64,000 nt of DNA from a virus (IMGVR_UViG_3300030330_004093:39014-103013), one strand, 5' to 3'. Numbered from the stretch's first letter, positions 8,977 through 22,672 are shown. Notes: generated from the letters alone by a model not told the origin. A program made the numbers and translations.

Positions 8977-9007
8977 TTGACAAAAGTAAATTATTTTTAT
9001 ATATTTG
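8977..9007 (+). promoter_or_regulatory. host-type (Bacteroidota sigma70) promoter TTGACA-N17-TATATTTG (representative copy)
   Basis: contains the Bacteroidota -7 consensus TAnnTTTG; TATATTTG also at 14008, 16241, 18240, 31501, 34582, 38280, 51507, 54210. Confidence 0.75.
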
Positions 9008-9036: not shown

Positions 9037-10491
9037 ATGACTAAATTGGTGAACGCATTAAGGACTAACGACAAGTTAACTGAAAACGGAATGGCAACTA
9101 ATAGCACTTCTTTAAATAGCTGTGTCGATTTATTTTTCAAGATAGGTGCTTTAAGAGGGCAAGACAAATTGAAAAAAATAAATGTCTTTAGTAGAGCATA
9201 TGGTGAAAACCCACTTTTAGCCATGAAATTAATTTTCTGGGCCAGAGACGTTAGAGGTGGTGCTGGTGAAAGAGGTACGTTTAGAGAGATTATTACTTAT
9301 ATAGCTAATAATAGAACTGAGTCACTTAGAAAAAACTTACACCTTATACCAGAGTACGGTAGATGGGATGATATGCTAACCTTAGTTGGTACTAAGTTAG
9401 AAACTGAAGCTTTATCAGTAATTGCTACTGCCCTTAAAGAAGGTAATGGGTTAGCCGCTAAATGGATGCCTAGTGTTAACGGTAAAAATAAAGAAAAAAA
9501 GAAGCTTGCTTCTGTTCTTAGAAAATATTTAAAACTTACACCAAAGGCGTATAGAAAGATGTTGTCAGAACTTTCCAACACCGTTGAGCAATTGATGTGT
9601 GCTAAAGATTATGAAAACATAAACTATAGTCACGTACCATCTAAGGCTATGTCTGATTATATGAAAGCCTTCACTAAAAATGATGGTATAAGATTCGGTG
9701 ATTACTTAGATTCCTTGTCGAAAGGTGAAGCCAAGATAAACGCTGGCGCTATTTACCCTTATGACGTAACGAAGAATCTTAATTACGGTTCTTCAGAAGG
9801 TGCTTCAGAACAATGGAAAGCGTTACCAAACTACATGGAAGGTAACAACGAAAGAGTTTTACCAGTGGTAGATACTTCAGGTTCTATGGGTATTTCTGCT
9901 GGAGGTAGTGCAAAGTTAACTTGTTTAGATGTAGCTTTATCGTTAGGTTTATACATTTCAGAAAGAAATGAGGGTGCATTTAAAGATGCGTTCATGACGT
10001 TTTCTAGTAGACCAACTTTACAGTATTTAAATGGTGACTTATCTGATAGATTCAACCAACTTACTCGCGCAGATTGGGGTATGAATACAGATATAGAAGC
10101 TACATTTTTAGAGATTCTAAGTAAAGCTAAGGAAAATAATGTTTCTGAGTCTGAAATGCCAACTATGATTTTGATACTTTCAGATATGGAGTTTGATAAA
10201 GCTAAAGGTATCACTTGTTACGGTGATACAAATACATGGAACCCAACAGCGCAAACCATGATTGAGGAAAGTTATACTGAAGCTGGATATAAGGTTCCAA
10301 AGATTGTATATTGGAACATACAGTCTAGAAACGAAAATGTCCCAGTACAATTCGATAAGGATGGTACGGCATTAGTTTCTGGGTTTAGTCCAGCATTATT
10401 AACTGGCTTATTGTCTGGTGAAGATATAACTCCAGAATCAATTATGATGAAGATTATAGGTAGTGAAAGATACGCACCAGTTACGGTTTAA
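9037..10491 (+). CDS. DUF2828-type TROVE/Ro60-like protein with C-terminal vWA domain
   Basis: TENG..., ARDVRGGAGER, YGRWDD, LAAKWMP, VVDTSGSM (MIDAS), ILSDMEFD, IVYWN, LVSGFSP. Confidence 0.85.
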   Translation: MTKLVNALRTNDKLTENGMATNSTSLNSCVDLFFKIGALRGQDKLKKINVFSRAYGENPLLAMKLIFWARDVRGGAGERGTFREIITYIANNRTESLRKNLHLIPEYGRWDDMLTLVGTKLETEALSVIATALKEGNGLAAKWMPSVNGKNKEKKKLASVLRKYLKLTPKAYRKMLSELSNTVEQLMCAKDYENINYSHVPSKAMSDYMKAFTKNDGIRFGDYLDSLSKGEAKINAGAIYPYDVTKNLNYGSSEGASEQWKALPNYMEGNNERVLPVVDTSGSMGISAGGSAKLTCLDVALSLGLYISERNEGAFKDAFMTFSSRPTLQYLNGDLSDRFNQLTRADWGMNTDIEATFLEILSKAKENNVSESEMPTMILILSDMEFDKAKGITCYGDTNTWNPTAQTMIEESYTEAGYKVPKIVYWNIQSRNENVPVQFDKDGTALVSGFSPALLTGLLSGEDITPESIMMKIIGSERYAPVTV

Positions 10492-10540
10492 AACACTCTT
10501 CTTTTATTCAAAGAATGTCTTACACATTCTTAATTGTAAA

Positions 10541-12954: not shown

Positions 12955-13998
12955 ATGCCAAAAGATTACTACGAAATATTAGAAGTAGATAAAAATGCTT
13001 CAGATTCAGAAATCAAAAAATCATATAGAAAGTTGTCCAAAAAACATCATCCAGATGTCGGTGGTAACGAAGATAAGTTCAAGGAAATAGCTGAAGCTTA
13101 CGAAATTTTATCAGATTCTGAGAAAAAATCTAACTACGACAGATATGGCCATGCTGGTAATAAAATGCATATGGGTGGTAATCCATTTGGGGGTAATCCA
13201 TTTGAGGGAGGTTTTAATATGAATGATTTCATGAATAATTTTCATGGAGGTGTTCGAAGACAAAAGAGAGGCAACGATATTTCATTTAATATAAAAATAA
13301 CTCTAGAGGAAGTATTTAATGGGGTAACTAAAAAATTTAAATACAAAAGAACTTCAGCATGTAAAGATTGTAATGGTGAAGGGGGTACAGAAAAAGAAGT
13401 TTGTAGCTCTTGTAATGGTAGAGGGTTTAACGTGGTGCTACAAACAACACCTATGGGCAGTTTTCAAGCACAACAAACTTGCCAAAGATGTCAAGGGGAA
13501 GGTAGAGTTGTTAAAAACATTTGTAAAACATGCAACGGTAATGGTGTTAGTTACAAAGAAGAAACCGTTAGCGTTGAATTACCAAAAGGTATTAGCGAGA
13601 ACGAAACCCTACAATACACAGGGATGGGTAACGCTGTAAAGGGTGGGTTACCAGGTTCTCTATTCATAAAGGTGTCTATAACAAACCATCATGACTTTGA
13701 AAGAAGTGGTAATGATTTAAAATATAATTTAAAATTAAATTACTCACAACTAGTGTTAGGTGATAAAGTAAAGGTACCTACCATTGATGGTAGTGATATA
13801 ATGATTGATATACCTAAATATAGTGATGTTGGTGATAACTTAAGGGTAGCTAAAAAGGGGTTATATAAAATGAATAGTGACGAGAGGGGTAATATGATAA
13901 TAATTTTAGATATAGATATACCTAAGAATATTGATGGTGAAGAGTTAGAATTAATTGAAAAATTAAAAAAATTAAAGAAGGGTGTTGGCGATAATTAA
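12955..13998 (+). CDS. dnaJ: DnaJ chaperone
   Basis: J-domain with HPD, G/F region, four CxxCxGxG repeats, C-terminal domain. Confidence 0.95.
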
Positions 13999-14965: not shown

Positions 14966-15703
14966 ATGGAGAACTACATAAATACAAATATGGACTTTTA
15001 TAGTGAATTTAAAAATTACGCAATGAACCATATGGGGATTAGCGGAATGCAGTTTCACTATTGGGATAAACTACAAGCTTCAATTTACGATAATGTAAAT
15101 GTATTAACTGGAACACAACCTAGCAGTTCAATGACACCCTATATCCTTGAAGAAAGGGAATTAAGAGTGACTCAAATGGACATCTTCTCAAGACAGATGA
15201 TGGATAGAATACTTTGGGTAGTTGGACCAGTTAATGACCAGATGTCAACGGTTGTATGTGCTCAGTTAATGTTCTTAGACAACTTAGAGGTGTCTGACAT
15301 TAAGATGTACGTAGATAGTCCAGGAGGTAGCGTTAAAAGTGGTCTTAGTATGGTAGACGTAATGAACTATGTCGAATCTGATATTTTAACGGTTAACACT
15401 GGTATGGCAGCATCGATGGGTTCTATCTTATTAGGTAATGGTACCAAGGGTAAAAGATTTGCTTTACCGAACTCAAGAGTTATGCTTCATCAAGTTAGTA
15501 GTGGTGCTAGAGGTCATGTTGAAGATATGAAGATTAGTATTGCTGAAGCGGAGAAATATAATCAAAACTTATTTGGTATGCTTGCTGAATATACTGGTAA
15601 GGATATCAAGACAGTACTTAAGGATTGTAATAGAGATAATTGGCTTAACGCTAAAGAAGCTTTAGAATATGGTATCATAGATGATATTATAACTAAAAAA
15701 TAA
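14966..15703 (+). CDS. clpP: ATP-dependent Clp protease proteolytic subunit
   Basis: MDIFSR..MDRI, YVDSPGGSV, GMAASMGS, RVMLHQ, RDNWLNAKEALEYGIID. Confidence 0.95.
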   Translation: MENYINTNMDFYSEFKNYAMNHMGISGMQFHYWDKLQASIYDNVNVLTGTQPSSSMTPYILEERELRVTQMDIFSRQMMDRILWVVGPVNDQMSTVVCAQLMFLDNLEVSDIKMYVDSPGGSVKSGLSMVDVMNYVESDILTVNTGMAASMGSILLGNGTKGKRFALPNSRVMLHQVSSGARGHVEDMKISIAEAEKYNQNLFGMLAEYTGKDIKTVLKDCNRDNWLNAKEALEYGIIDDIITKK

Positions 15704-16153: not shown

Positions 16154-16278
16154 TAATAAACGGGGCAACTAATTATTAATGGGGACTTAACGGTTCCCAT
16201 TTTTTTTATTAAAAAAGTTGACAACTTAGTAAAGTTTTAGTATATTTGTGAATATATATATAGTAGTTCTTTTTTTAT

Positions 16279-16642
16279 GGGGTATAATGATATTGATTGC
16301 TTAACGTAATGGTTAACAAGCATGCAGTGTTAGATGGAAACACTAGAATAACCTATCAAGACTTTTAAACGACAACGAATTTAACGTTGACAAAAACTTC
16401 CTTGAAACTTCTACAGTAGAAGTATTTGAAGGAGAGGTAGCATTCGCCTAACAGAAGATGCACGTTCCTTCGGGGACACCAGGTTTATCTGATTGTACTT
16501 AACAATCGGTTGAAGGTTGTAAGTTACCGCTCTGCTAATTTGGGAACTTAATATTTTTGTTCTTTTAGAAAAAACGAACTAAGCATGTAGAAAGTTTATT
16601 GTTAGTAAGTAAGAAGTGGGGTCATGCCCACATACTCCACCA
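16279..16642 (+). ncRNA. ssrA: tmRNA
   Basis: 5' GGGGUAU pairs with 3' AUACUCC (G3-U wobble), discriminator A plus encoded CCA; AAGCAUG boxes near both ends; tag ORF 16371-16451; own promoter and terminator. Confidence 0.92.
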
Positions 16643-16756: not shown

Positions 16757-17203
16757 ATGGGAGTAATTACAGAGAACAGCAAAGTAACGGTACATTATAT
16801 TGGAAAATTATCTGATGGTCAAGTATTTGACGCATCAATGCCTGTAGAGGGTGACGAAAACTTCACAGGTAGGGAACCAATTGATGTTGAATTGGGTAAA
16901 AAAATGGTTATACCTGGATTTGAGAAAGCATTACAAGGTATGCAAGAAGGGGAAACTAAAACCGTTACAATACCTTCATCAGAGGCATACGGTGAAGTAA
17001 GTTCACAACATTTACATGAGATTGAAAAAGATAGGGTACCAGATACAGTTAAGGAAGGTGATGTTTTACAAACAGAAAATGCTGGTCAAGTTGCCAAGGT
17101 TATTGTTAAAGAAGTTAAAGAAAATACTGTTATTTTAGATGCAAATCATCCTTTAGCGGGTAAAGATTTGACTTTTGAATTAAAAGTTGTTAGTGTGTCT
17201 TAA
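16757..17203 (+). CDS. FKBP-type peptidyl-prolyl isomerase (SlyD/FkpB-like)
   Basis: VTVHYIGKLSDGQVFDAS, VIPGFEKAL, EAYGE, LDANHPLAGKDLTF. Confidence 0.92.
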   Translation: MGVITENSKVTVHYIGKLSDGQVFDASMPVEGDENFTGREPIDVELGKKMVIPGFEKALQGMQEGETKTVTIPSSEAYGEVSSQHLHEIEKDRVPDTVKEGDVLQTENAGQVAKVIVKEVKENTVILDANHPLAGKDLTFELKVVSVS

Positions 17204-17660: not shown

Positions 17661-17788
17661 AGTATTAAGTTTTAAATATTCTTATTGTTTTATTTATAAA
17701 TATGTTTCTAAAATAAAATAATGTATATTATTTGGTTTTTAATAAAAAAACATATATATTTGACTATACTTATATAATAAAGGATAGT

Positions 17789-17983
17789 ATGATAAAAGTA
17801 AATGTTAAAAACGGCAATATTGAAAGTGCTTTAAAATTTTTAAAGAGAAAAGTTAGAAACACAAAACAAACTAACGAATTAAGGGAAAGAAAAACCTACA
17901 CAAAACCCTCAGAAGAAAGAAGGGAATCAAAAAAGAAATCAATTTATATCGAACAGAAAAGAATAAAGGATGAAGATATTTAA
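17789..17983 (+). CDS. rpsU: ribosomal protein bS21
   Basis: MIKVNVKNGNIESALKFLKRKV...LRERKTYTKPSEERR. Confidence 0.9.
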   Translation: MIKVNVKNGNIESALKFLKRKVRNTKQTNELRERKTYTKPSEERRESKKKSIYIEQKRIKDEDI

Positions 17984-18261
17984 AAAAAATAAAAAATCAG
18001 TTACTCTATTGGATGAAAAATGGAATGTAATTGATGATAATGTCGATTTCAATAATCTACCCAGAATACATGAATTAATCTTTTTACCAAAAGAAAATAA
18101 ATATTATAGAGTAGTTAACATAATTTATAACATGGTAAAACCCATTGAAACATACGTAGTTATAGAAATTTATGGGGATGATTATAAATTAATTGAAAAA
18201 AATAATGACAAGGGGGTTGACACGTAACAAAATTATATGTATATTTGTATTATAGTATTAA

Positions 18262-18381
18262 AGAAAGGATACAGCAGTCCAAAAACTAAAATCGGAAAAC
18301 AACTCCTTTCTGTTACTTCTTATAAAGAAAAGATACAGCAAATTACACACACACAAAGCAAAATGTAAAAATTCTTTTCTG
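18262..18381 (+). ncRNA. two tandem small structured RNAs sharing a UACAGCA motif
   Basis: AGAAAGGA-UACAGCA...UCCUUUCU and AGAAAAGA-UACAGCA...UCUUUUCU, lying between promoter 18217-18247 and terminator 18408-18435. Confidence 0.7.
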
Positions 18382-18451
18382 AAACTAGTTTTTAACGTAG
18401 TATAATTAATCCCCAGTGATAAGCTGGGGATTTTTATTTAAAAAATTAAAT

Positions 18452-18973
18452 ATGAATAAAGAAAAAAAGTTTCCATCACTATTAATAATAGGTAATAAAA
18501 GACACGGAAAGGATAGCCTAGCTGAAATACTAGGTGATAAGTTTGGTCTTAAATTCAAATCATCATCACAAGCTTGTGCGGATATTTTCATTTACGATGA
18601 ATTAAAAACAAAGTATGGGTATAAGACACCAGAAGAATGTTTTGAAGATAGAGTTAACCATAGAAGGGAGTGGTACGAAATGATTAGAGATTACAACAAA
18701 GACGATAGAAGTAAATTAGCTAAGGAAGTTTTGAAAACCACCGATTGTTATGTTGGTATGAGGGATAGAGAAGAAATAGAAGAATGTTTAAAAAATAAAC
18801 TATTTGATTTAGTGATATGGGTTGATGCTTCAGATAGATTACCACTTGAAGATAAGGAATCTTTTAATATAGATAAGTCATGTGCTCATATTATTATAGA
18901 TAATAATGGCACATATGATGAATTTGTCAATAAGAGTATATTATTAGGTAAATTACTAACTGGGACTATCTAA
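18452..18973 (+). CDS. deoxynucleoside monophosphate kinase-like P-loop protein
   Basis: IIGNKRHGKD P-loop, GMRDREE, IIIDNNGT. Confidence 0.7.
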   Translation: MNKEKKFPSLLIIGNKRHGKDSLAEILGDKFGLKFKSSSQACADIFIYDELKTKYGYKTPEECFEDRVNHRREWYEMIRDYNKDDRSKLAKEVLKTTDCYVGMRDREEIEECLKNKLFDLVIWVDASDRLPLEDKESFNIDKSCAHIIIDNNGTYDEFVNKSILLGKLLTGTI

Positions 18974-19075
18974 TATTAAACTATATAACTTAATTATTAA
19001 AATAACCCTGTAATTGATTACGGGGTTTGTTTTTTATTTAAATTTTATTATATTTATATACAAAGGTAATTCACT

Positions 19076-19546
19076 ATGAAAATGTTAGATGTAATAAAGA
19101 AAGAATTGGAAGGTAAAAAGTTGCCACCAAATGCAAATAAAATATTTGATATAATTAAAAAGTGTGATGAATTATCACTTAATGTTTCAAAATTATACAC
19201 CAAGTTAAGTTTTGAAACAATAGGCGCTATTATACTAGGTGAGACTGATATATCTAAGTACGATTCAATGGTTGAAACTCTAGATGATTACTCTACTCAG
19301 TATGATAGGGAGTTAAGCTCTGAAATGAAATCGGTTGAGGATAATTATGATATATATGAAGATTTTTTTCACGTTATAGATAACAACACAAGTGATATTA
19401 TTGCTTGGAGAAAAATAAGTTCTTTATCTGATTTAACAAGAAAGTTAGTAGACCTAACATCAGAAGACCATGATAAATTCATGGGACAAGCGAATAAAGA
19501 TACCGAAATAAGTAACTTTAAAAGGTTTTCATTAGGAAATGGATAA
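19076..19546 (+). CDS. hypothetical protein
   Basis: first ORF of a TATTTAT-led operon. Confidence 0.6.
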   Translation: MKMLDVIKKELEGKKLPPNANKIFDIIKKCDELSLNVSKLYTKLSFETIGAIILGETDISKYDSMVETLDDYSTQYDRELSSEMKSVEDNYDIYEDFFHVIDNNTSDIIAWRKISSLSDLTRKLVDLTSEDHDKFMGQANKDTEISNFKRFSLGNG

Positions 19547-20096
19547 ATCACAAATCAAAATAGCTTTAAGAGAGGGTTTAGAAGAAACCATAACCAAAGT
19601 ATCAATATTTGACTTTGACGGAACCCTTGTGGATTCACCAATACCAGACGGTAGAGATGCTGAGACAAATAACCCAACATCCAAAGAATACAAAGAAAAT
19701 ACTGGGCAAGACTGGCCATTCAAAGGTTGGTGGGGTAGAGGCGAAAGCTTAGATATGGAAGCGTTTAATATACCACAAATAAGTTCAACAATAGCGGACT
19801 ATAATGAAGAAAGGTCAAAACCAAATACTTTGGTTGTTATGATGACTGGTAGAATTCCTAAGATTTCTGAACATGTTGAAAAAATATTAAATAAATATAA
19901 CCTTAAATTTGATGATTACATTTATAACAACAAGGGGGCTACATTAGATTTTAAAATTAAAGTACTAGAAGATTACCTTACAATATACCCAAATTTAAGG
20001 GAAATTGAAATGTGGGAAGACAGGGTTGCGCACACAAAAGCATTCAGAGAATGGGGTGCGAATAAAAATATTGAAATGATTGTTAATCAAGTATGA
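19539..20096 (+). CDS. HAD phosphatase of the Swiss-Army-Knife RNA-repair type
   Basis: IFDFDGTLVDSP, GWWG, MMTGR, EMWEDRVAH. Confidence 0.8.
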   Translation: MDKSQIKIALREGLEETITKVSIFDFDGTLVDSPIPDGRDAETNNPTSKEYKENTGQDWPFKGWWGRGESLDMEAFNIPQISSTIADYNEERSKPNTLVVMMTGRIPKISEHVEKILNKYNLKFDDYIYNNKGATLDFKIKVLEDYLTIYPNLREIEMWEDRVAHTKAFREWGANKNIEMIVNQV

Positions 20097-22672
20097 AACA
20101 TTTAATTAAAAAATTATTAAATGAAGAATCTAGAAAAATAACATTACTAGAGGAATTATCTTTATTAATAGAAAAAGAAATATCTGTAGGTCCAGCATTA
20201 AAGAAAAAACTTGGTAATATAAACAAGCCATTTGCTGACAAATTACTAAAATTTTTAACTTCAGATAAAATATCCGATAAGGTCACGATAGATACTATAG
20301 ACTACAATTTAGATGATGACAAAACCATAACTGGTTATTTTAAAGATAGAGAAGGTAAAAGAAAAGCTAGGAAGTTTAAGGTAGGTAAACTGTTAAAATA
20401 CTTAGGTGTTAATCCTTCGGAATATAAGGGATACGAAATAGAGGAATTAATATCTTATCTGAAACAAGGTAGTCTAGAGGACTTTAAGGTGGTTGATGGG
20501 GAAGATATATTAAAAGCGTATCATTGTGATAATTATGACGAAGGGGAAACCATGGGTTCTTGTATGCGATATGAAGCTGCACAAACTTATTTAAAGATGT
20601 ATGTAGATAACCCAGACGATGTTAAATGCTTAGTCTTACTTAACCCAAACAATAATAAAGTTAGAGGTAGAGCCTTATTATGGCATATGGATAACGACAG
20701 ATGGTTTATGGATAGGGTATACATGATAAATAGTCAATACAGGAACCTATTCAATTTATATAAAGAAAAGAATAATTTTAGTATGATACCTAAAACTGTA
20801 ACACTAACAAACGGTGGGGAATATGATAAATATCCATACATGGATACTTTTGAATTCTATAGCCCATCCAATGGTGAATTAAGTACAGAAGATTACCATG
20901 ATGACTCTATTATGTTAACAGATACGCAAGGTGGTTACTCTGAAGGTGGTGCTTATATTGAGTATGGTGAACACGAAGGAGAAACTATCGATGAGGACGA
21001 TGCTGTTTTTTTATCATACAGAAAACCAAATGAAAATGTGGAAGGATATGCACACGAGGATGACGTAGAAACAATAGATGGAACCGCATATCTAAAAGAT
21101 GACTGTATAGAGTTATACAATGGTGACTTTGCATTTAAATATGACGACTATAGTTATCCTGTTGAATTAACTCACGGCGCATATGAAGGTGAATATGCTA
21201 AATTAGATGACACTGTACAACTAGAAGACGGACAATATGGTAGTGATTCTTATATTACAACAGATGACGACTATATAGAATTAGATAATAGTATATACGA
21301 TACACCTTATGCTTTTACTGATGATACAACACAAACTTATAGTGATAAGATAATACTAAGAGACGATGCTATAACACTTTACGAACCACATTACGGCGAC
21401 TTCAATTATGCTCATCCAGATGAAGCAACTGAAGTAGATATAAAAGACCATGGTTCGGCATGGGTTCTAGATGATGATTTAGATGAGTTTGAAGAAAATG
21501 GTCTTATTGAAGAAAAATTAGAAGCTATTATGGAAAATAAATCTTTAATCAAAAAATTACTAAGAGAAGGTCTCGATAAAGTTAATTCGTTTGAATCTCT
21601 ATTAGGTGAAGTAACAAGTAAACTTGATTTCTCATCATTTAAGATGAATGATACACTTAATCCTGAGATATGGGTTGATGAAAATACTATTAAACCAGAA
21701 ATACAAGAAAACCTTATAAAAATAGCTGAAGATTATTATAATAATCTAGAATTAGACATACCAATATTAGATATAACACTTACAGGTAGTTTAGCCAATT
21801 ATAATTGGTCAAAATACTCTGATGTTGATTTACATATAATATTTGATGCAAATGAACTTGGGGATAATAAGGACATGGTTAAGGATTTACTAGATGTAAA
21901 GACTAGAGCATGGAATCTTAAGCACAATATAACAGTAAAGGGGTTTGATGTGGAGCTATATCTTCAACCAGAAGACCAACCACATCATTCAACAGGTGTT
22001 TATTCTCTAATGAACAAAGAATGGGTTGACAAACCAGAAATAGTAAAACCAGAGATTGACAAAGAAACTATAACTAAGAAATACAATAACATCATATCAA
22101 TAGTTAAAGATATCGAAGACGATAAGGATAATCAAAACGTTATTGAAAAGATAGAACAACTAAAGGATAAGATTAAAGACATGAGAAAGTCTGGTCTTGA
22201 AGATAAGGGAGAATATAGTTCCGAAAACATAACCTTTAAATTACTTAGAAGAAATGATATAATGCAAAAACTAGATGATTTATTAGTTAATGCTTATGAC
22301 GATGAACACACTATAGTTGAGGTATCTAAGTTCCCAATAGCAGACCCACCAATGTACGGCGACTCTAATTACAAGGATAGAAACGGTATTATTGTGGACA
22401 TGAAACCACAAGACTATTTATATTTGGTACCACATCTAGAACTAGATGATGATTCAGAGGACAATATAGAAGATTTAGCTAGTATGATGAGAGATGGTGT
22501 TGAAATTGACCCACCTACATTATATTTAGACGGTAATAGGGTGGACAATCATGACGGTAGGCATAGAGTTTACGCCGCTATGAGACTAGGATTAAATAGA
22601 ATACCTGTCCTTTTCTTAGACAAAAACAATAATAAACCCCAATTAAAGGGTCTCAAAAAACAACTTGGATGA
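20093..22672 (+). CDS. multidomain protein: conserved phage domain, acidic region, Pol-beta-family nucleotidyltransferase, ParB/Srx-like domain
   Basis: GSCMRY...GRALLW...MDRVY; LTGSLANYNWSKYSDVDLHI (GS..DxD); DGRHRVYAA. Confidence 0.75.
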   Translation: MKHLIKKLLNEESRKITLLEELSLLIEKEISVGPALKKKLGNINKPFADKLLKFLTSDKISDKVTIDTIDYNLDDDKTITGYFKDREGKRKARKFKVGKLLKYLGVNPSEYKGYEIEELISYLKQGSLEDFKVVDGEDILKAYHCDNYDEGETMGSCMRYEAAQTYLKMYVDNPDDVKCLVLLNPNNNKVRGRALLWHMDNDRWFMDRVYMINSQYRNLFNLYKEKNNFSMIPKTVTLTNGGEYDKYPYMDTFEFYSPSNGELSTEDYHDDSIMLTDTQGGYSEGGAYIEYGEHEGETIDEDDAVFLSYRKPNENVEGYAHEDDVETIDGTAYLKDDCIELYNGDFAFKYDDYSYPVELTHGAYEGEYAKLDDTVQLEDGQYGSDSYITTDDDYIELDNSIYDTPYAFTDDTTQTYSDKIILRDDAITLYEPHYGDFNYAHPDEATEVDIKDHGSAWVLDDDLDEFEENGLIEEKLEAIMENKSLIKKLLREGLDKVNSFESLLGEVTSKLDFSSFKMNDTLNPEIWVDENTIKPEIQENLIKIAEDYYNNLELDIPILDITLTGSLANYNWSKYSDVDLHIIFDANELGDNKDMVKDLLDVKTRAWNLKHNITVKGFDVELYLQPEDQPHHSTGVYSLMNKEWVDKPEIVKPEIDKETITKKYNNIISIVKDIEDDKDNQNVIEKIEQLKDKIKDMRKSGLEDKGEYSSENITFKLLRRNDIMQKLDDLLVNAYDDEHTIVEVSKFPIADPPMYGDSNYKDRNGIIVDMKPQDYLYLVPHLELDDDSEDNIEDLASMMRDGVEIDPPTLYLDGNRVDNHDGRHRVYAAMRLGLNRIPVLFLDKNNNKPQLKGLKKQLG

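What the first reader, a model, noticed from the sequence alone, without database searches (positions are those of the whole stretch)
18217..18435. Stand-alone transcript of two covarying UACAGCA hairpin RNAs, candidate partners of the TROVE/Ro60-like protein
Seen in sequence: between a TTGACA-N17-TATATTTG promoter and a terminator there is no credible ORF, only two ~50-55-nt units. Each has an 8-bp closing stem with a compensatory change (AGAAAGGA/UCCUUUCU versus AGAAAAGA/UCUUUUCU), an invariant unpaired UACAGCA, and a second helix of different sequence (UCC/GGA versus UUACA/UGUAA) with an A/C-rich loop. The promoter (GGGTTGACA...TATATTTGTAT) closely matches that of the DUF2828 gene at 9037. 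Established: Ro60/TROVE proteins bind Y RNAs at a bulged stem and are linked to RNA repair and decay. Inference: a Y-RNA analogue for the DUF2828 family. The genes are 8 kb apart, so the link is hypothetical.
Basis: partly seen in the sequence, partly recalled or inferred. Interest (0 to 1): 0.72.

Follow-up and report, generated by a model that had tools for sequence, protein, structure and literature searches.

The report
Partner RNAs of phage Ro60-like protein
A large uncultured phage makes two small hairpin RNAs from their own promoter, and they belong to an apparently undescribed RNA family that sits right beside the gene for a ring-shaped Ro60-like protein in many phage and bacterial or archaeal contigs, so they are most likely that protein's Y-RNA-like partners.

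Summary
A promoter (18217-18247) and a terminator (18408-18432) enclose two units, each with an 8-bp closing stem followed by UACAGCA.

The units belong to a real RNA family: a covarying 7-8 bp terminal stem, then CAGCAA 1-3 nt after its 5' strand, a variable loop (often A-rich), the 3' strand, then G.

- **Link to DUF2828 genes.** My motif scan finds the family on the gene's strand beside DUF2828 genes: within 700 nt in about 36 of 54 viral loci, and within 700 nt upstream in 71 of 80 bacterial/archaeal loci (about 1 hit expected by chance).
- **Independent test.** A covariance model built only from gene-adjacent units of distant phages finds U2 (E 6e-4) and U1 (E 7e-3) as the only hits at E<=0.01 in the 64-kb window.
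- **The protein.** The window's DUF2828 protein (9037-10491) is predicted to fold like Ro60; the top 13 PDB matches are all Ro60.
- **A bridge to Y RNAs.** One long family member carries the tRNA-like module of bacterial YrlA Y RNA (E 2e-5) inside a CAGCAA handle.

Binding itself is untested.

No Rfam family matches at threshold. The nearest look-alike is Dictyostelium Class I RNA. The papers I searched describe nothing like this. This scan has noted the same family on about 76 other genomes.

The parts
18217..18247 (+). Promoter of the RNA operon: TTGACA (18217-18222), 17 nt, then TATATTTG (18240-18247). By my recollection (not checked in a paper) this fits the Bacteroidota TAnnTTTG -7 box.
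   Evidence: It is conserved in L120 and G003 at the syntenic spot. The same form precedes the DUF2828 gene (8977) and the tmRNA gene (16218).
18260..18313 (+). Unit U1 (about 50 nt): AAAG lead-in; stem 18262-18269 / 18304-18311; handle UACAGCAG 18270-18277; weak inner helix UCC/GGA (18278-80 / 18294-96); A-rich 3' loop; G at 18312, then U.
   Evidence: the closing stem is the minimum-energy fold. R1 scores it 69 bits. The independent model R2 scores it 26.2 bits, E 0.007.
18324..18382 (+). Unit U2 (about 55 nt): AAAG lead-in; stem 18326-18333 / 18373-18380; handle UACAGCAA 18334-18341; CA-rich variable loop; A-rich 3' loop; G at 18381.
   Evidence: R2 scores it 31 bits, E 6e-4. It aligns full-length to Rfam RF01414 at 14.8 bits, below that family's threshold.
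18408..18437 (+). Intrinsic terminator that ends the RNA operon: a 10-bp hairpin followed by a U-run.
   Evidence: It is conserved in L120.
9037..10491 (+). Gene for the Ro60-like protein (DUF2828 + DUF7788/vWA, 484 aa), the proposed protein partner. It lies 7.7 kb upstream on the same strand.
   Evidence: Pfam: PF11443 at 8e-35 and PF25043 at 8e-48. PHROG 850, annotated 'RNA-binding protein'. AF2 model pLDDT 81.5. Foldseek top 13 hits are all Ro60/TROVE.
8977..9007 (+). Promoter of the DUF2828 gene, of the same GTTGACA-N17-TATATTTG form as the RNA operon's promoter.
10511..10531 (+). Stub hairpin AAGAATGT / ACATTCTT just after the DUF2828 stop codon. At this position relatives carry a 133-138-nt family member (AGAATGC ... 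CAGCAA ... GCATTCT). It is probably the remnant of a deleted gene-adjacent unit.
   Evidence: L142, L143 and L144 have the intact unit 9-10 nt after the stop; the window lacks its interior and has no CAGCAA here.

Best explanation
**What it is.** U1 and U2 are two small stable RNAs transcribed as one stand-alone unit from promoter 18217 to terminator 18432.

**Proposed roles of the parts**
- The 'handle' is the 8-bp terminal stem plus the single-stranded UACAGCA(A/G) immediately 3' of its 5' strand. I propose that it is the docking site for the phage's Ro60-like DUF2828 protein (9037-10491). In the same way, the terminal stem plus GNCGAA/CGAA of bacterial and phage Y RNAs docks on Ro60.
- The variable loop, A/C-rich here and tRNA-like in some long relatives, is the effector or regulatory end. 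It would recruit or block a host RNA-processing factor, or gate access of damaged RNAs to the ring.

**Shown here:** the anatomy, family membership, covariation of the stem, genomic linkage of the family to DUF2828 genes, and the predicted Ro60 fold of the protein.

**Inferred:** expression, processing into two RNAs, direct binding, and the downstream function in RNA quality control or repair. The function is suggested by the phage's tmRNA, CCA-adding enzyme and polynucleotide-kinase-like genes.
For: **1. A family with a covarying stem.**
- Seven members from the window's clade show 3 of 8 stem pairs changed on both sides.
- Twenty-six gene-adjacent members from distant phages show all 7 pairs changed on both sides, with 19 extra pair types.
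- Sliding the 3' partner by any offset drops pairing from 98% to 32-47%.

**2. Linkage in viral contigs.**
- Across 54 DUF2828 loci plus the window, my scan (7-bp stem + N1-3 + CAGCAA ... stem' + G) gives 110 hits on the gene's strand and 9 on the other.
- About 36 loci have a unit within 700 nt of the gene. Examples were inspected by eye.

**3. Linkage in an independent set.**
- In 80 bacterial/archaeal contigs with DUF2828, the scan gives 211 plus-strand and 7 minus-strand hits.
- 179 of the plus-strand hits end 0-700 nt upstream of the gene, in 71 of 80 loci.
- The background rate is 41 hits per 1.88 Mb, which predicts about 1 hit in those intervals.
- Model R2 gives 67 hits there at E<=0.01, all on the gene's strand.

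**4. Independent membership test.**
- R2 contains no sequence from the window's clade operon. It finds U2 and U1, the only hits at E<=0.01 in the 64-kb window.
- It gives 1 hit in 779 kb of unrelated viral DNA.

**5. Predicted protein fold.** Ro60, including phiLo 9KOP (E 4e-10, TM 0.58-0.60) and Xenopus, Deinococcus and human Ro60.

**6. A YrlA module inside a family member.** The long member L177:9583-9695 has a CAGCAA handle. It encloses a T-arm, an acceptor-like hairpin and a D-arm that match Rfam YrlA positions 24-84 (32.3 bits, E 1.7e-5).

**7. Trans action.** Here the units have their own promoter and terminator 7.7 kb from the gene. This argues for trans-acting RNAs and against a cis leader.

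**8. A natural contrast.** Relative G001 is syntenic but lacks the DUF2828 gene at its slot. Its single unit has a mutated handle (UAUAGCAA) and no 3' stem strand, and R2 no longer detects it.
Against: - There are no expression or binding data.
- In this window the units are 7.7 kb from the gene, beyond the 4-kb criterion used for YrlA (PMC4201824).
- The handle differs from every Ro60 handle described so far (GGUCCGA, GNCGAA(N)G, CGAA).
- In the window's clade the units share an operon with tRNA-Met/Pro/Leu genes, so a role in tRNA-operon processing cannot be excluded.
- One R2 hit (L037) lies in a 45-kb phage fragment without DUF2828.
- The stem and CAGCAA were selection criteria of my scan. 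The high percentage paired and the invariant handle in A4 are therefore partly by construction. Strand bias, position and the R2 cross-test are the independent evidence.
- U1 has CAGCAG, not CAGCAA.
Confidence: 0.68

Rival explanations
1. The units are punctuation or processing hairpins of a phage tRNA/ncRNA operon. They would be RNase recognition or protective end structures with no link to the DUF2828 protein. In this window the tRNA cargo has been lost, leaving an empty operon.
For: - In relatives the same promoter drives operons in which units stand first, between, and last among tRNA-Met, tRNA-Pro, tRNA-Leu and odd tRNA-like RNAs.
- Units often begin 1-10 nt after a tRNA 3' end or end about 10 nt before a tRNA.
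Against: - The other tRNA arrays of the same genomes have no units. The window's arrays at 31 kb and 34.8-35.6 kb have none, and 70-140-kb relatives carry units only at this one locus.
- Several loci have units beside DUF2828 and no tRNA at all (L142, L183, L164).
- The adjacency to DUF2828 in 71 of 80 MAG loci is unexplained by this reading.
Confidence: 0.12
2. The family is a cis-regulatory leader or trailer of the DUF2828 mRNA, for example autoregulatory binding sites. The window's copies are displaced relics.
For: In most MAG loci the units lie 0-700 nt upstream of the gene on the same strand and may be co-transcribed with it.
Against: - In this window the units have their own promoter and terminator 7.7 kb away, with at least ten ORFs and a tmRNA gene in between.
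- In many phages the units lie downstream of the gene.
- Arrays of 2-4 units with different loops, and tRNA-like inserts, fit separate RNAs better than one leader.
- Both stems here are perfect 8-bp helices, not decayed.
Confidence: 0.08
3. The units are decaying tRNA-derived or duplicated remnants that no longer function. The region is a leftover of an operon that has been lost.
For: - The closest relative, G001, has a single degenerate unit.
- The window has lost the gene-adjacent long unit.
- The operon content varies widely between relatives.
Against: - Both units keep a perfect 8-bp stem through a compensatory change, plus the handle.
- The promoter and terminator are intact and conserved.
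- An independent model still recognises both units.
Confidence: 0.08
4. The region encodes a small protein: the 43-aa ORF at 18237-18368.
For: An ATG-initiated ORF exists.
Against: - It starts inside the -10 box of the only promoter.
- It is truncated to 14 codons in L120.
- Conservation follows the RNA stem, through compensatory changes, and not the codons.
Confidence: 0.01

Closest known systems
Ro60 (Rsr/TROVE + vWA) with Y RNAs: bacterial and mycobacteriophage YrlA/YrlB (Rfam RF02553; Chen et al. 2014, PMC4201824) and Thermus phage phiLo Ro60 with Yrl1/Yrl2 (PMC12135203)
   Same: - The protein is predicted to share the fold: a ring of HEAT-like repeats plus a vWA domain.
- Small RNAs are encoded beside the gene on the same strand, often several in a row.
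- Each RNA has a stem joining its 5' and 3' ends, with a short conserved single-stranded motif next to the 5' strand.
- Both short forms and long tRNA-like forms occur. One long member matches the YrlA tRNA-like module.
- The genomic company is RNA repair and tRNA genes.
   Different: - The protein is a separate sequence family. Pfam matches DUF2828/DUF7788 and not TROVE, and a profile search against PDB sequences finds Ro60 only weakly, at the metal-binding (MIDAS) motif of the vWA domain.
- The handle is CAGCAA, not GNCGAA(N)G or CGAA.
- U1 and U2 have no tRNA-like domain and give no RF02553 or RF00019 match.
- In this window the RNAs are 7.7 kb from the gene.
Dictyostelium Class I RNAs (Rfam RF01414; Kjellin et al. 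2021, PMC7919456)
   Same: - The build is the same: about 42-65 nt and a short covarying stem joining the ends.
- A conserved motif ending in UACAGCAA lies directly 3' of the 5' stem strand.
- The middle is variable and the 3' loop is A-rich.
- There is an AAG lead-in and a CUG(U) tail.
- RF01414 aligns full-length to U2 (14.8 bits) and to two units of L184 (16.6 and 14.4 bits).
   Different: - All scores are far below the family's gathering score of 41.5, with E-values of 1-5.
- An archaeal-MAG unit array gave no RF01414 match.
- Class I RNAs are eukaryotic, are reported as unique to dictyostelids, and have a known RRM-protein binder (Rnp1A).
- No link to a DUF2828 protein appears in what I could read.
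Stable RNAs of unknown function in phage tRNA clusters, such as T4 species 1 and 2 RNAs (from my own knowledge, not checked here)
   Same: They are small non-tRNA RNAs co-transcribed with phage tRNAs.
   Different: No sequence or structural relation was tested, and T4 has no DUF2828 link that I know of.

Membership tests
CAGCAA-handle RNAs beside DUF2828 genes (family defined here; not in Rfam) | [quoted passage not shown] | tested here: met
   U1 and U2 have perfect 8-bp stems that differ by a G-C to A-U change. Family covariation is shown.
CAGCAA-handle RNAs beside DUF2828 genes (family defined here; not in Rfam) | CAGCAA lies 1-3 nt after the 5' stem strand, and a G follows the 3' strand. 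| tested here: met
   U2 has UACAGCAA and a G after the stem. U1 has UACAGCAG (last base differs) and a G after the stem.
CAGCAA-handle RNAs beside DUF2828 genes (family defined here; not in Rfam) | It is recognised by a covariance model built without it or its close relatives. | tested here: met
   R2 was built from 26 gene-adjacent units of distant phages. It scores U2 at 31 bits (E 6e-4) and U1 at 26.2 bits (E 7e-3), the only hits at E<=0.01 in the window.
CAGCAA-handle RNAs beside DUF2828 genes (family defined here; not in Rfam) | A DUF2828 gene lies on the same strand in the same genome, usually within 700 nt. | tested here: inconclusive
   The gene is present on the same strand but 7.7 kb away. 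This distal operon is conserved 6-8 kb downstream of the gene in the window's clade.
Y RNA / YrlA (Rfam RF00019, RF02553) | It binds a Ro60 protein. | not testable with these tools
   This needs EMSA or immunoprecipitation.
Y RNA / YrlA (Rfam RF00019, RF02553) | A conserved GNCGAA(N)G / GGUCCGA / CGAA motif lies in the 5' strand region of the terminal stem (PMC4201824, PMC12135203). | tested here: not met
   Neither U1 nor U2 has a CGAA motif. The handle is UACAGCA.
Y RNA / YrlA (Rfam RF00019, RF02553) | It is encoded within 4 kb of the Ro60 gene on the same strand (the criterion of Chen et al. 2014). | tested here: not met
   Same strand, but 7.7 kb away. Other family members do meet the criterion relative to DUF2828.
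Y RNA / YrlA (Rfam RF00019, RF02553) | It has a tRNA-like domain (T-arm, acceptor-like stem, D-arm), or it matches the Rfam model at gathering score. | tested here: not met
   U1 and U2 give no match. The long relative L177:9583-9695 matches only the tRNA-like part: 32.3 bits against a gathering score of 69.
Dictyostelium Class I RNA (Rfam RF01414) | A short stem joins the ends, an 11-nt motif CCUUACAGCAA lies beside the 5' strand, and the length is 42-65 nt (PMC7919456). | tested here: inconclusive
   The stem and length are met. U2 matches 8 of the 11 motif positions (UACAGCAA) and U1 matches 7.
Dictyostelium Class I RNA (Rfam RF01414) | It scores at or above the Rfam gathering score of 41.5 bits. 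| tested here: not met
   U2 scores 14.8 bits, E 2.1. U1 is not reported.
Ro60/TROVE protein family (for the partner protein at 9037-10491) | The fold is a HEAT-repeat ring plus a vWA domain with a MIDAS motif. | tested here: met
   The AF2 model has pLDDT 81.5 and pTM 0.74. The Foldseek top 13 hits are all Ro60, with TM 0.55-0.60 over about 500 columns. DxSxS is invariant in A3 and aligns to the phiLo MIDAS motif.
Ro60/TROVE protein family (for the partner protein at 9037-10491) | It matches the Pfam TROVE domain (PF05731). | tested here: not met
   Only PF11443 and PF25043 are reported at E<=0.01.

The most novel reading that the evidence does not exclude
DUF2828 proteins and CAGCAA-handle RNAs form a second, undescribed branch of the Ro60/Y-RNA particle that spans phages, bacteria and archaea. 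The long-unexplained Class I RNAs of dictyostelid amoebae would be its eukaryotic members. That would make Class I RNAs the 'Y RNAs' of a DUF2828-type Ro-like protein, rather than a dictyostelid invention.
Probability: 0.3. Interest if true: 0.9.

Novelty: new variant of a known kind. Interest (0 to 1): 0.76.

Why it matters
**A missing partner.** Ro60 and its Y RNAs are a classic RNA-surveillance particle, but only one protein family and one RNA handle are known. Here a second Ro-shaped protein family gets a candidate RNA partner family with a different handle. That family (DUF2828) is common in phages and, as my Pfam recollection and the plant papers suggest, also occurs in eukaryotes. The partner RNAs have modular cargo loops, including the same tRNA-like module as YrlA.

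**Direct experiments become possible.** These include EMSA or cryo-EM with a 50-nt RNA and handle mutants.

**What this window adds.** It shows the RNAs expressed from their own promoter far from the gene, which points to trans-acting RNAs.

**A wider link.** The resemblance to Dictyostelium Class I RNAs offers a concrete protein candidate for a 20-year-old orphan RNA class.

Tried and rejected
- **16-mer motif scan of viral contigs.** It returned 118 loci, all chance matches. None had the closing stem. These loci later served as background.
- **blastn of the region against GenBank phages.** No match.
- **The search for related loci with the 859-aa neighbour.** No relatives found.
- **AF2 without an alignment.** Useless, pLDDT 34.
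- **phmmer of the protein against PDB.** Nothing.
- **Rfam.** No family at gathering score, either in the window or in 8 related loci.
- **RF01414 on an archaeal-MAG unit array (L200).** It did not reappear there, so the Class I resemblance is not uniform.
- **Avesson et al. 2011,** which names the four Class I-binding proteins, is not held.
- **The protein atlas** returned only other DUF2828/DUF7788 clusters.
- **Ideas considered and dropped:**
  - CRISPR-like mini-array: the repeats are too short, and the stem covaries.
  - Integron attC-like sites: no integrase and no R'/R'' boxes.
  - Antitermination (put-like) elements: units also sit just before terminators.
  - Degenerate tRNAs with UACAGCA read as U8...A14: no D-stem partner exists.

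Full report
**Setting.** The window is part of a 103-kb IMG/VR virus record estimated to be 29% complete, so it is a jumbo-phage fragment.
- All genes read on the + strand.
- The window carries 11 tRNAs and a tmRNA.
- It also carries DnaJ, ClpP and FKBP genes, a CCA-adding enzyme and an HAD domain of the 'Swiss Army Knife' RNA-repair family.
- PHROGs adds a polynucleotide-kinase-like hit for that HAD gene and a ribosomal-protein-S21-like gene.
- The promoter has TTGACA, 17 nt, then TATATTTG. By my recollection (not checked in a paper) this fits the Bacteroidota TAnnTTTG -7 box.
- The best cellular relative of the DUF2828 protein lies in a Saprospirales MAG (60% identity).

**The observation.**
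- The promoter is at 18217-18247.
- U1 has an 8-bp stem at 18262-18269 / 18304-18311.
- U2 has an 8-bp stem at 18326-18333 / 18373-18380.
- Each 5' strand is followed directly by UACAGCA.
- A strong terminator lies at 18408-18432.
- Each unit folds into its closing stem as the minimum-energy structure, and the transcript folds with z = -4.1.
- The only ORF (43 aa) starts in the -10 box and is not conserved.

Three details needed correcting.
- The motif is not invariant in relatives.
- The inner helices are weak and not conserved.
- The same promoter form also drives the tmRNA gene, so promoter likeness says little about a specific link to the DUF2828 gene.

**Relatives of the locus.**
- The downstream 173-aa gene, which is dNMP-kinase-like, retrieved 15 related phage loci.
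- The closest is G001/L120, with 88% identity in that protein. It keeps the promoter, lead-in and terminator but has only one unit.
- That unit's handle reads UAUAGCAA and its 3' stem strand is gone.
- G001 is syntenic with the window gene by gene, yet it lacks the DUF2828 gene exactly at its slot.
- In G003 the same promoter drives an operon of about 700 nt. It holds three units, an unidentified structured RNA, an odd tRNA-like RNA and two tRNA-Met genes.
- Other relatives have units before tRNA-Pro or tRNA-Leu, or after the last tRNA.
- The unit stems differ: AGAAUCA, AGAAUGA, AGAAUAGA, AGGAUUAU, AAAGUGG and AGGAUAG. The sequence N-CAGCAA is kept.
- A covariance model of seven units (R1) found units only at this one locus in records of 70-140 kb. 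It found none at the window's other tRNA arrays.

**The link to DUF2828.**
- I fetched 54 viral loci around homologues of the 9037 protein.
- R1 hit the syntenic distal operon in the window's clade. It also hit sites directly next to the DUF2828 gene in more distant phages.
- By eye these are tandem arrays of 2-4 units with quite different stems, such as UGGGCGC, UGGACCC, AGGACAC, UGAGUAC and GAAACGC.
- I then wrote a simple scan: a 7-bp stem, 1-3 nt, CAGCAA, at most 260 nt, the complementary strand, then G.
- It gives 110 hits on the gene's strand and 9 on the other across 969 kb. About 36 of 54 loci have a unit within 700 nt.
- An independent set gave the same picture: 80 bacterial and archaeal MAG or genome contigs with DUF2828, each with 3-kb flanks.
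  - There are 211 plus-strand and 7 minus-strand hits.
  - 179 of the plus-strand hits end 0-700 nt upstream of the gene, in 71 of 80 loci.
  - The background rate in unrelated viral contigs is 41 hits per 1.88 Mb of strand, which predicts about one hit in those intervals.

**An independent membership test.**
- Model R2 was built only from 26 short gene-adjacent units of distant phages (A4). It contains nothing from the window's clade operon.
- In A4 all seven stem pairs change on both sides. This alignment was selected for pairing and for CAGCAA, so percentage paired and handle invariance are partly by construction.
- R2 finds U2 (31 bits, E 6e-4) and U1 (26.2 bits, E 7e-3); no other match in the 64-kb window reaches E<=0.01 (next best E 0.77). 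It also finds the clade's other units.
- It gives one hit in 779 kb of unrelated viral DNA. That hit is in a 45-kb fragment without DUF2828.
- In the MAG set it gives 67 hits at E<=0.01, all on the gene's strand.

**The protein.**
- Pfam sees DUF2828 and DUF7788, not TROVE.
- With a 27-sequence alignment, AlphaFold gives pLDDT 81.5 and pTM 0.74.
- The 13 best Foldseek matches in the PDB are all Ro60, over the full length:
  - Thermus phage phiLo (E 4e-10, TM 0.58-0.60);
  - Xenopus;
  - Deinococcus Rsr;
  - human.
- The next matches are isolated vWA domains.
- A sequence profile finds the phiLo protein only weakly, at the MIDAS motif (E 0.05).
- So this is a Ro60-shaped protein from a separate sequence family.

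**Comparison with known RNAs.**
- Bacterial and phage Y RNAs have a stem joining the two ends. A short motif (GNCGAA(N)G or CGAA) lies near the 5' strand and is needed for Ro60 binding. They are encoded beside the gene on the same strand (PMC4201824; PMC12135203).
- The present family has the same layout with a different motif.
- A long member, L177:9583-9695, has a CAGCAA handle around a T-arm, a UUCG-capped hairpin and a D-arm.
- This interior matches Rfam YrlA positions 24-84 at 32.3 bits, E 1.7e-5. In other words, the YrlA cargo module sits on a different handle.
- U1 and U2 are minimal forms without this module, like YrlB.
- No Rfam family reaches threshold.
- The only recurrent weak match is Dictyostelium Class I RNA (RF01414). 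It aligns end to end with U2 and with two units of L184.
- The published Class I features are an AAG start, a 6-bp covarying stem, an 11-nt motif ending in UACAGCAA, about 60 nt in length and a CUGU end (PMC7919456). They closely parallel the phage units.
- However, the scores are far below threshold, and one MAG array gave no such match.
- I found no paper that links DUF2828 or DUF7788 with any RNA.
- A jumbo-phage survey mentions TROVE proteins with a tRNA-like partner only in general terms.

**What is special in this window.**
- Relatives L142, L143 and L144 carry a 133-138-nt family member 9-10 nt after the DUF2828 stop codon.
- The window has only a 21-nt stub hairpin there, at 10511-10531. 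The interior and the handle have been deleted.
- U1 and U2 are therefore the only handle-bearing RNAs in the 103 kb available.
- They are transcribed on their own, 7.7 kb from the gene. This favours trans-acting partner RNAs over a cis leader.

**Earlier findings of the scan.**
- The notebook of earlier findings shows the same family noted on about 76 other genomes, and the stub hairpin noted on this genome.
- I used those notes as leads only. The Class I lead was checked against Rfam alignments and the paper.

**Verdict.**
- I file it as a new variant of the Ro60/Y-RNA kind.
- It fails the defining sequence features of the YrlA and Class I families, so I do not call it a member of either.

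Noticed in passing
window 16279-16642 (promoter at 16218): A phage-encoded tmRNA (Rfam 54.2 bits) with its own GTTGACA-N17-TATATTTG promoter. ClpP (14966-15703), DnaJ (12955-13998) and FKBP (16757-17203) lie around it. ARAGORN did not call the tmRNA.
   Followed up: no
window 17732-17983: An 83-aa ORF matches the PHROG for ribosomal protein S21 (E 8e-8), just upstream of the RNA operon.
   Followed up: no
window 18452-22672: Directly downstream of the RNA operon lie three genes: a dNMP-kinase-like P-loop protein, an HAD 'Swiss Army Knife'/polynucleotide-kinase-like protein, and an 859-aa protein with a nucleotidyltransferase domain. This is a possible RNA end-healing cluster. In relatives the 173-aa gene always follows the unit operon.
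   Followed up: partly
L139 (G003) minus strand, about 3815-3690 and about 3600-3490: Inside the homologous operon there is an unidentified structured RNA of about 125 nt. There is also an odd tRNA-like RNA with an ACGUCAU/AUGACGU closing stem that ARAGORN does not call. L124 has counterparts of both.
   Followed up: no
L121 3033-3104, L127 4835-4906, L145 18443-18515, L146 20095-20166, L155 19596-19667: Related phages carry a tRNA with a CUA anticodon (ARAGORN calls it 'tRNA-Pyl') just after the 173-aa gene. It is a possible amber suppressor. No such tRNA was called in the window.
   Followed up: no
L121 about 1270-1760: An ORF sits inside the tRNA/unit operon of a relative. By eye it looked like an HNH-type homing endonuclease; this was not checked against any family library.
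   Followed up: no
L177 9754-9830: Next to the YrlA-like long unit there is a weak match to permuted tmRNA (RF04321, 26.8 bits, E 6e-4). It contains a T-arm-like GGGUUCAACCCCC.
   Followed up: no
L171 8854 onward: The ORF that follows two tandem units begins with a sequence resembling a CsaA/Trbp111-type tRNA-binding domain. This was judged by eye and not searched.
   Followed up: no
L121 1839-1928, L146 18131-18219, L155 18263-18351: The roughly 80-nt units at the end of the clade's operon contain a T-arm-like GGGUUCAAUUCCC / GUGGUUCAAUCCCAC just before the 3' stem strand. They are tRNA-like cargo of a kind different from the YrlA module.
   Followed up: partly
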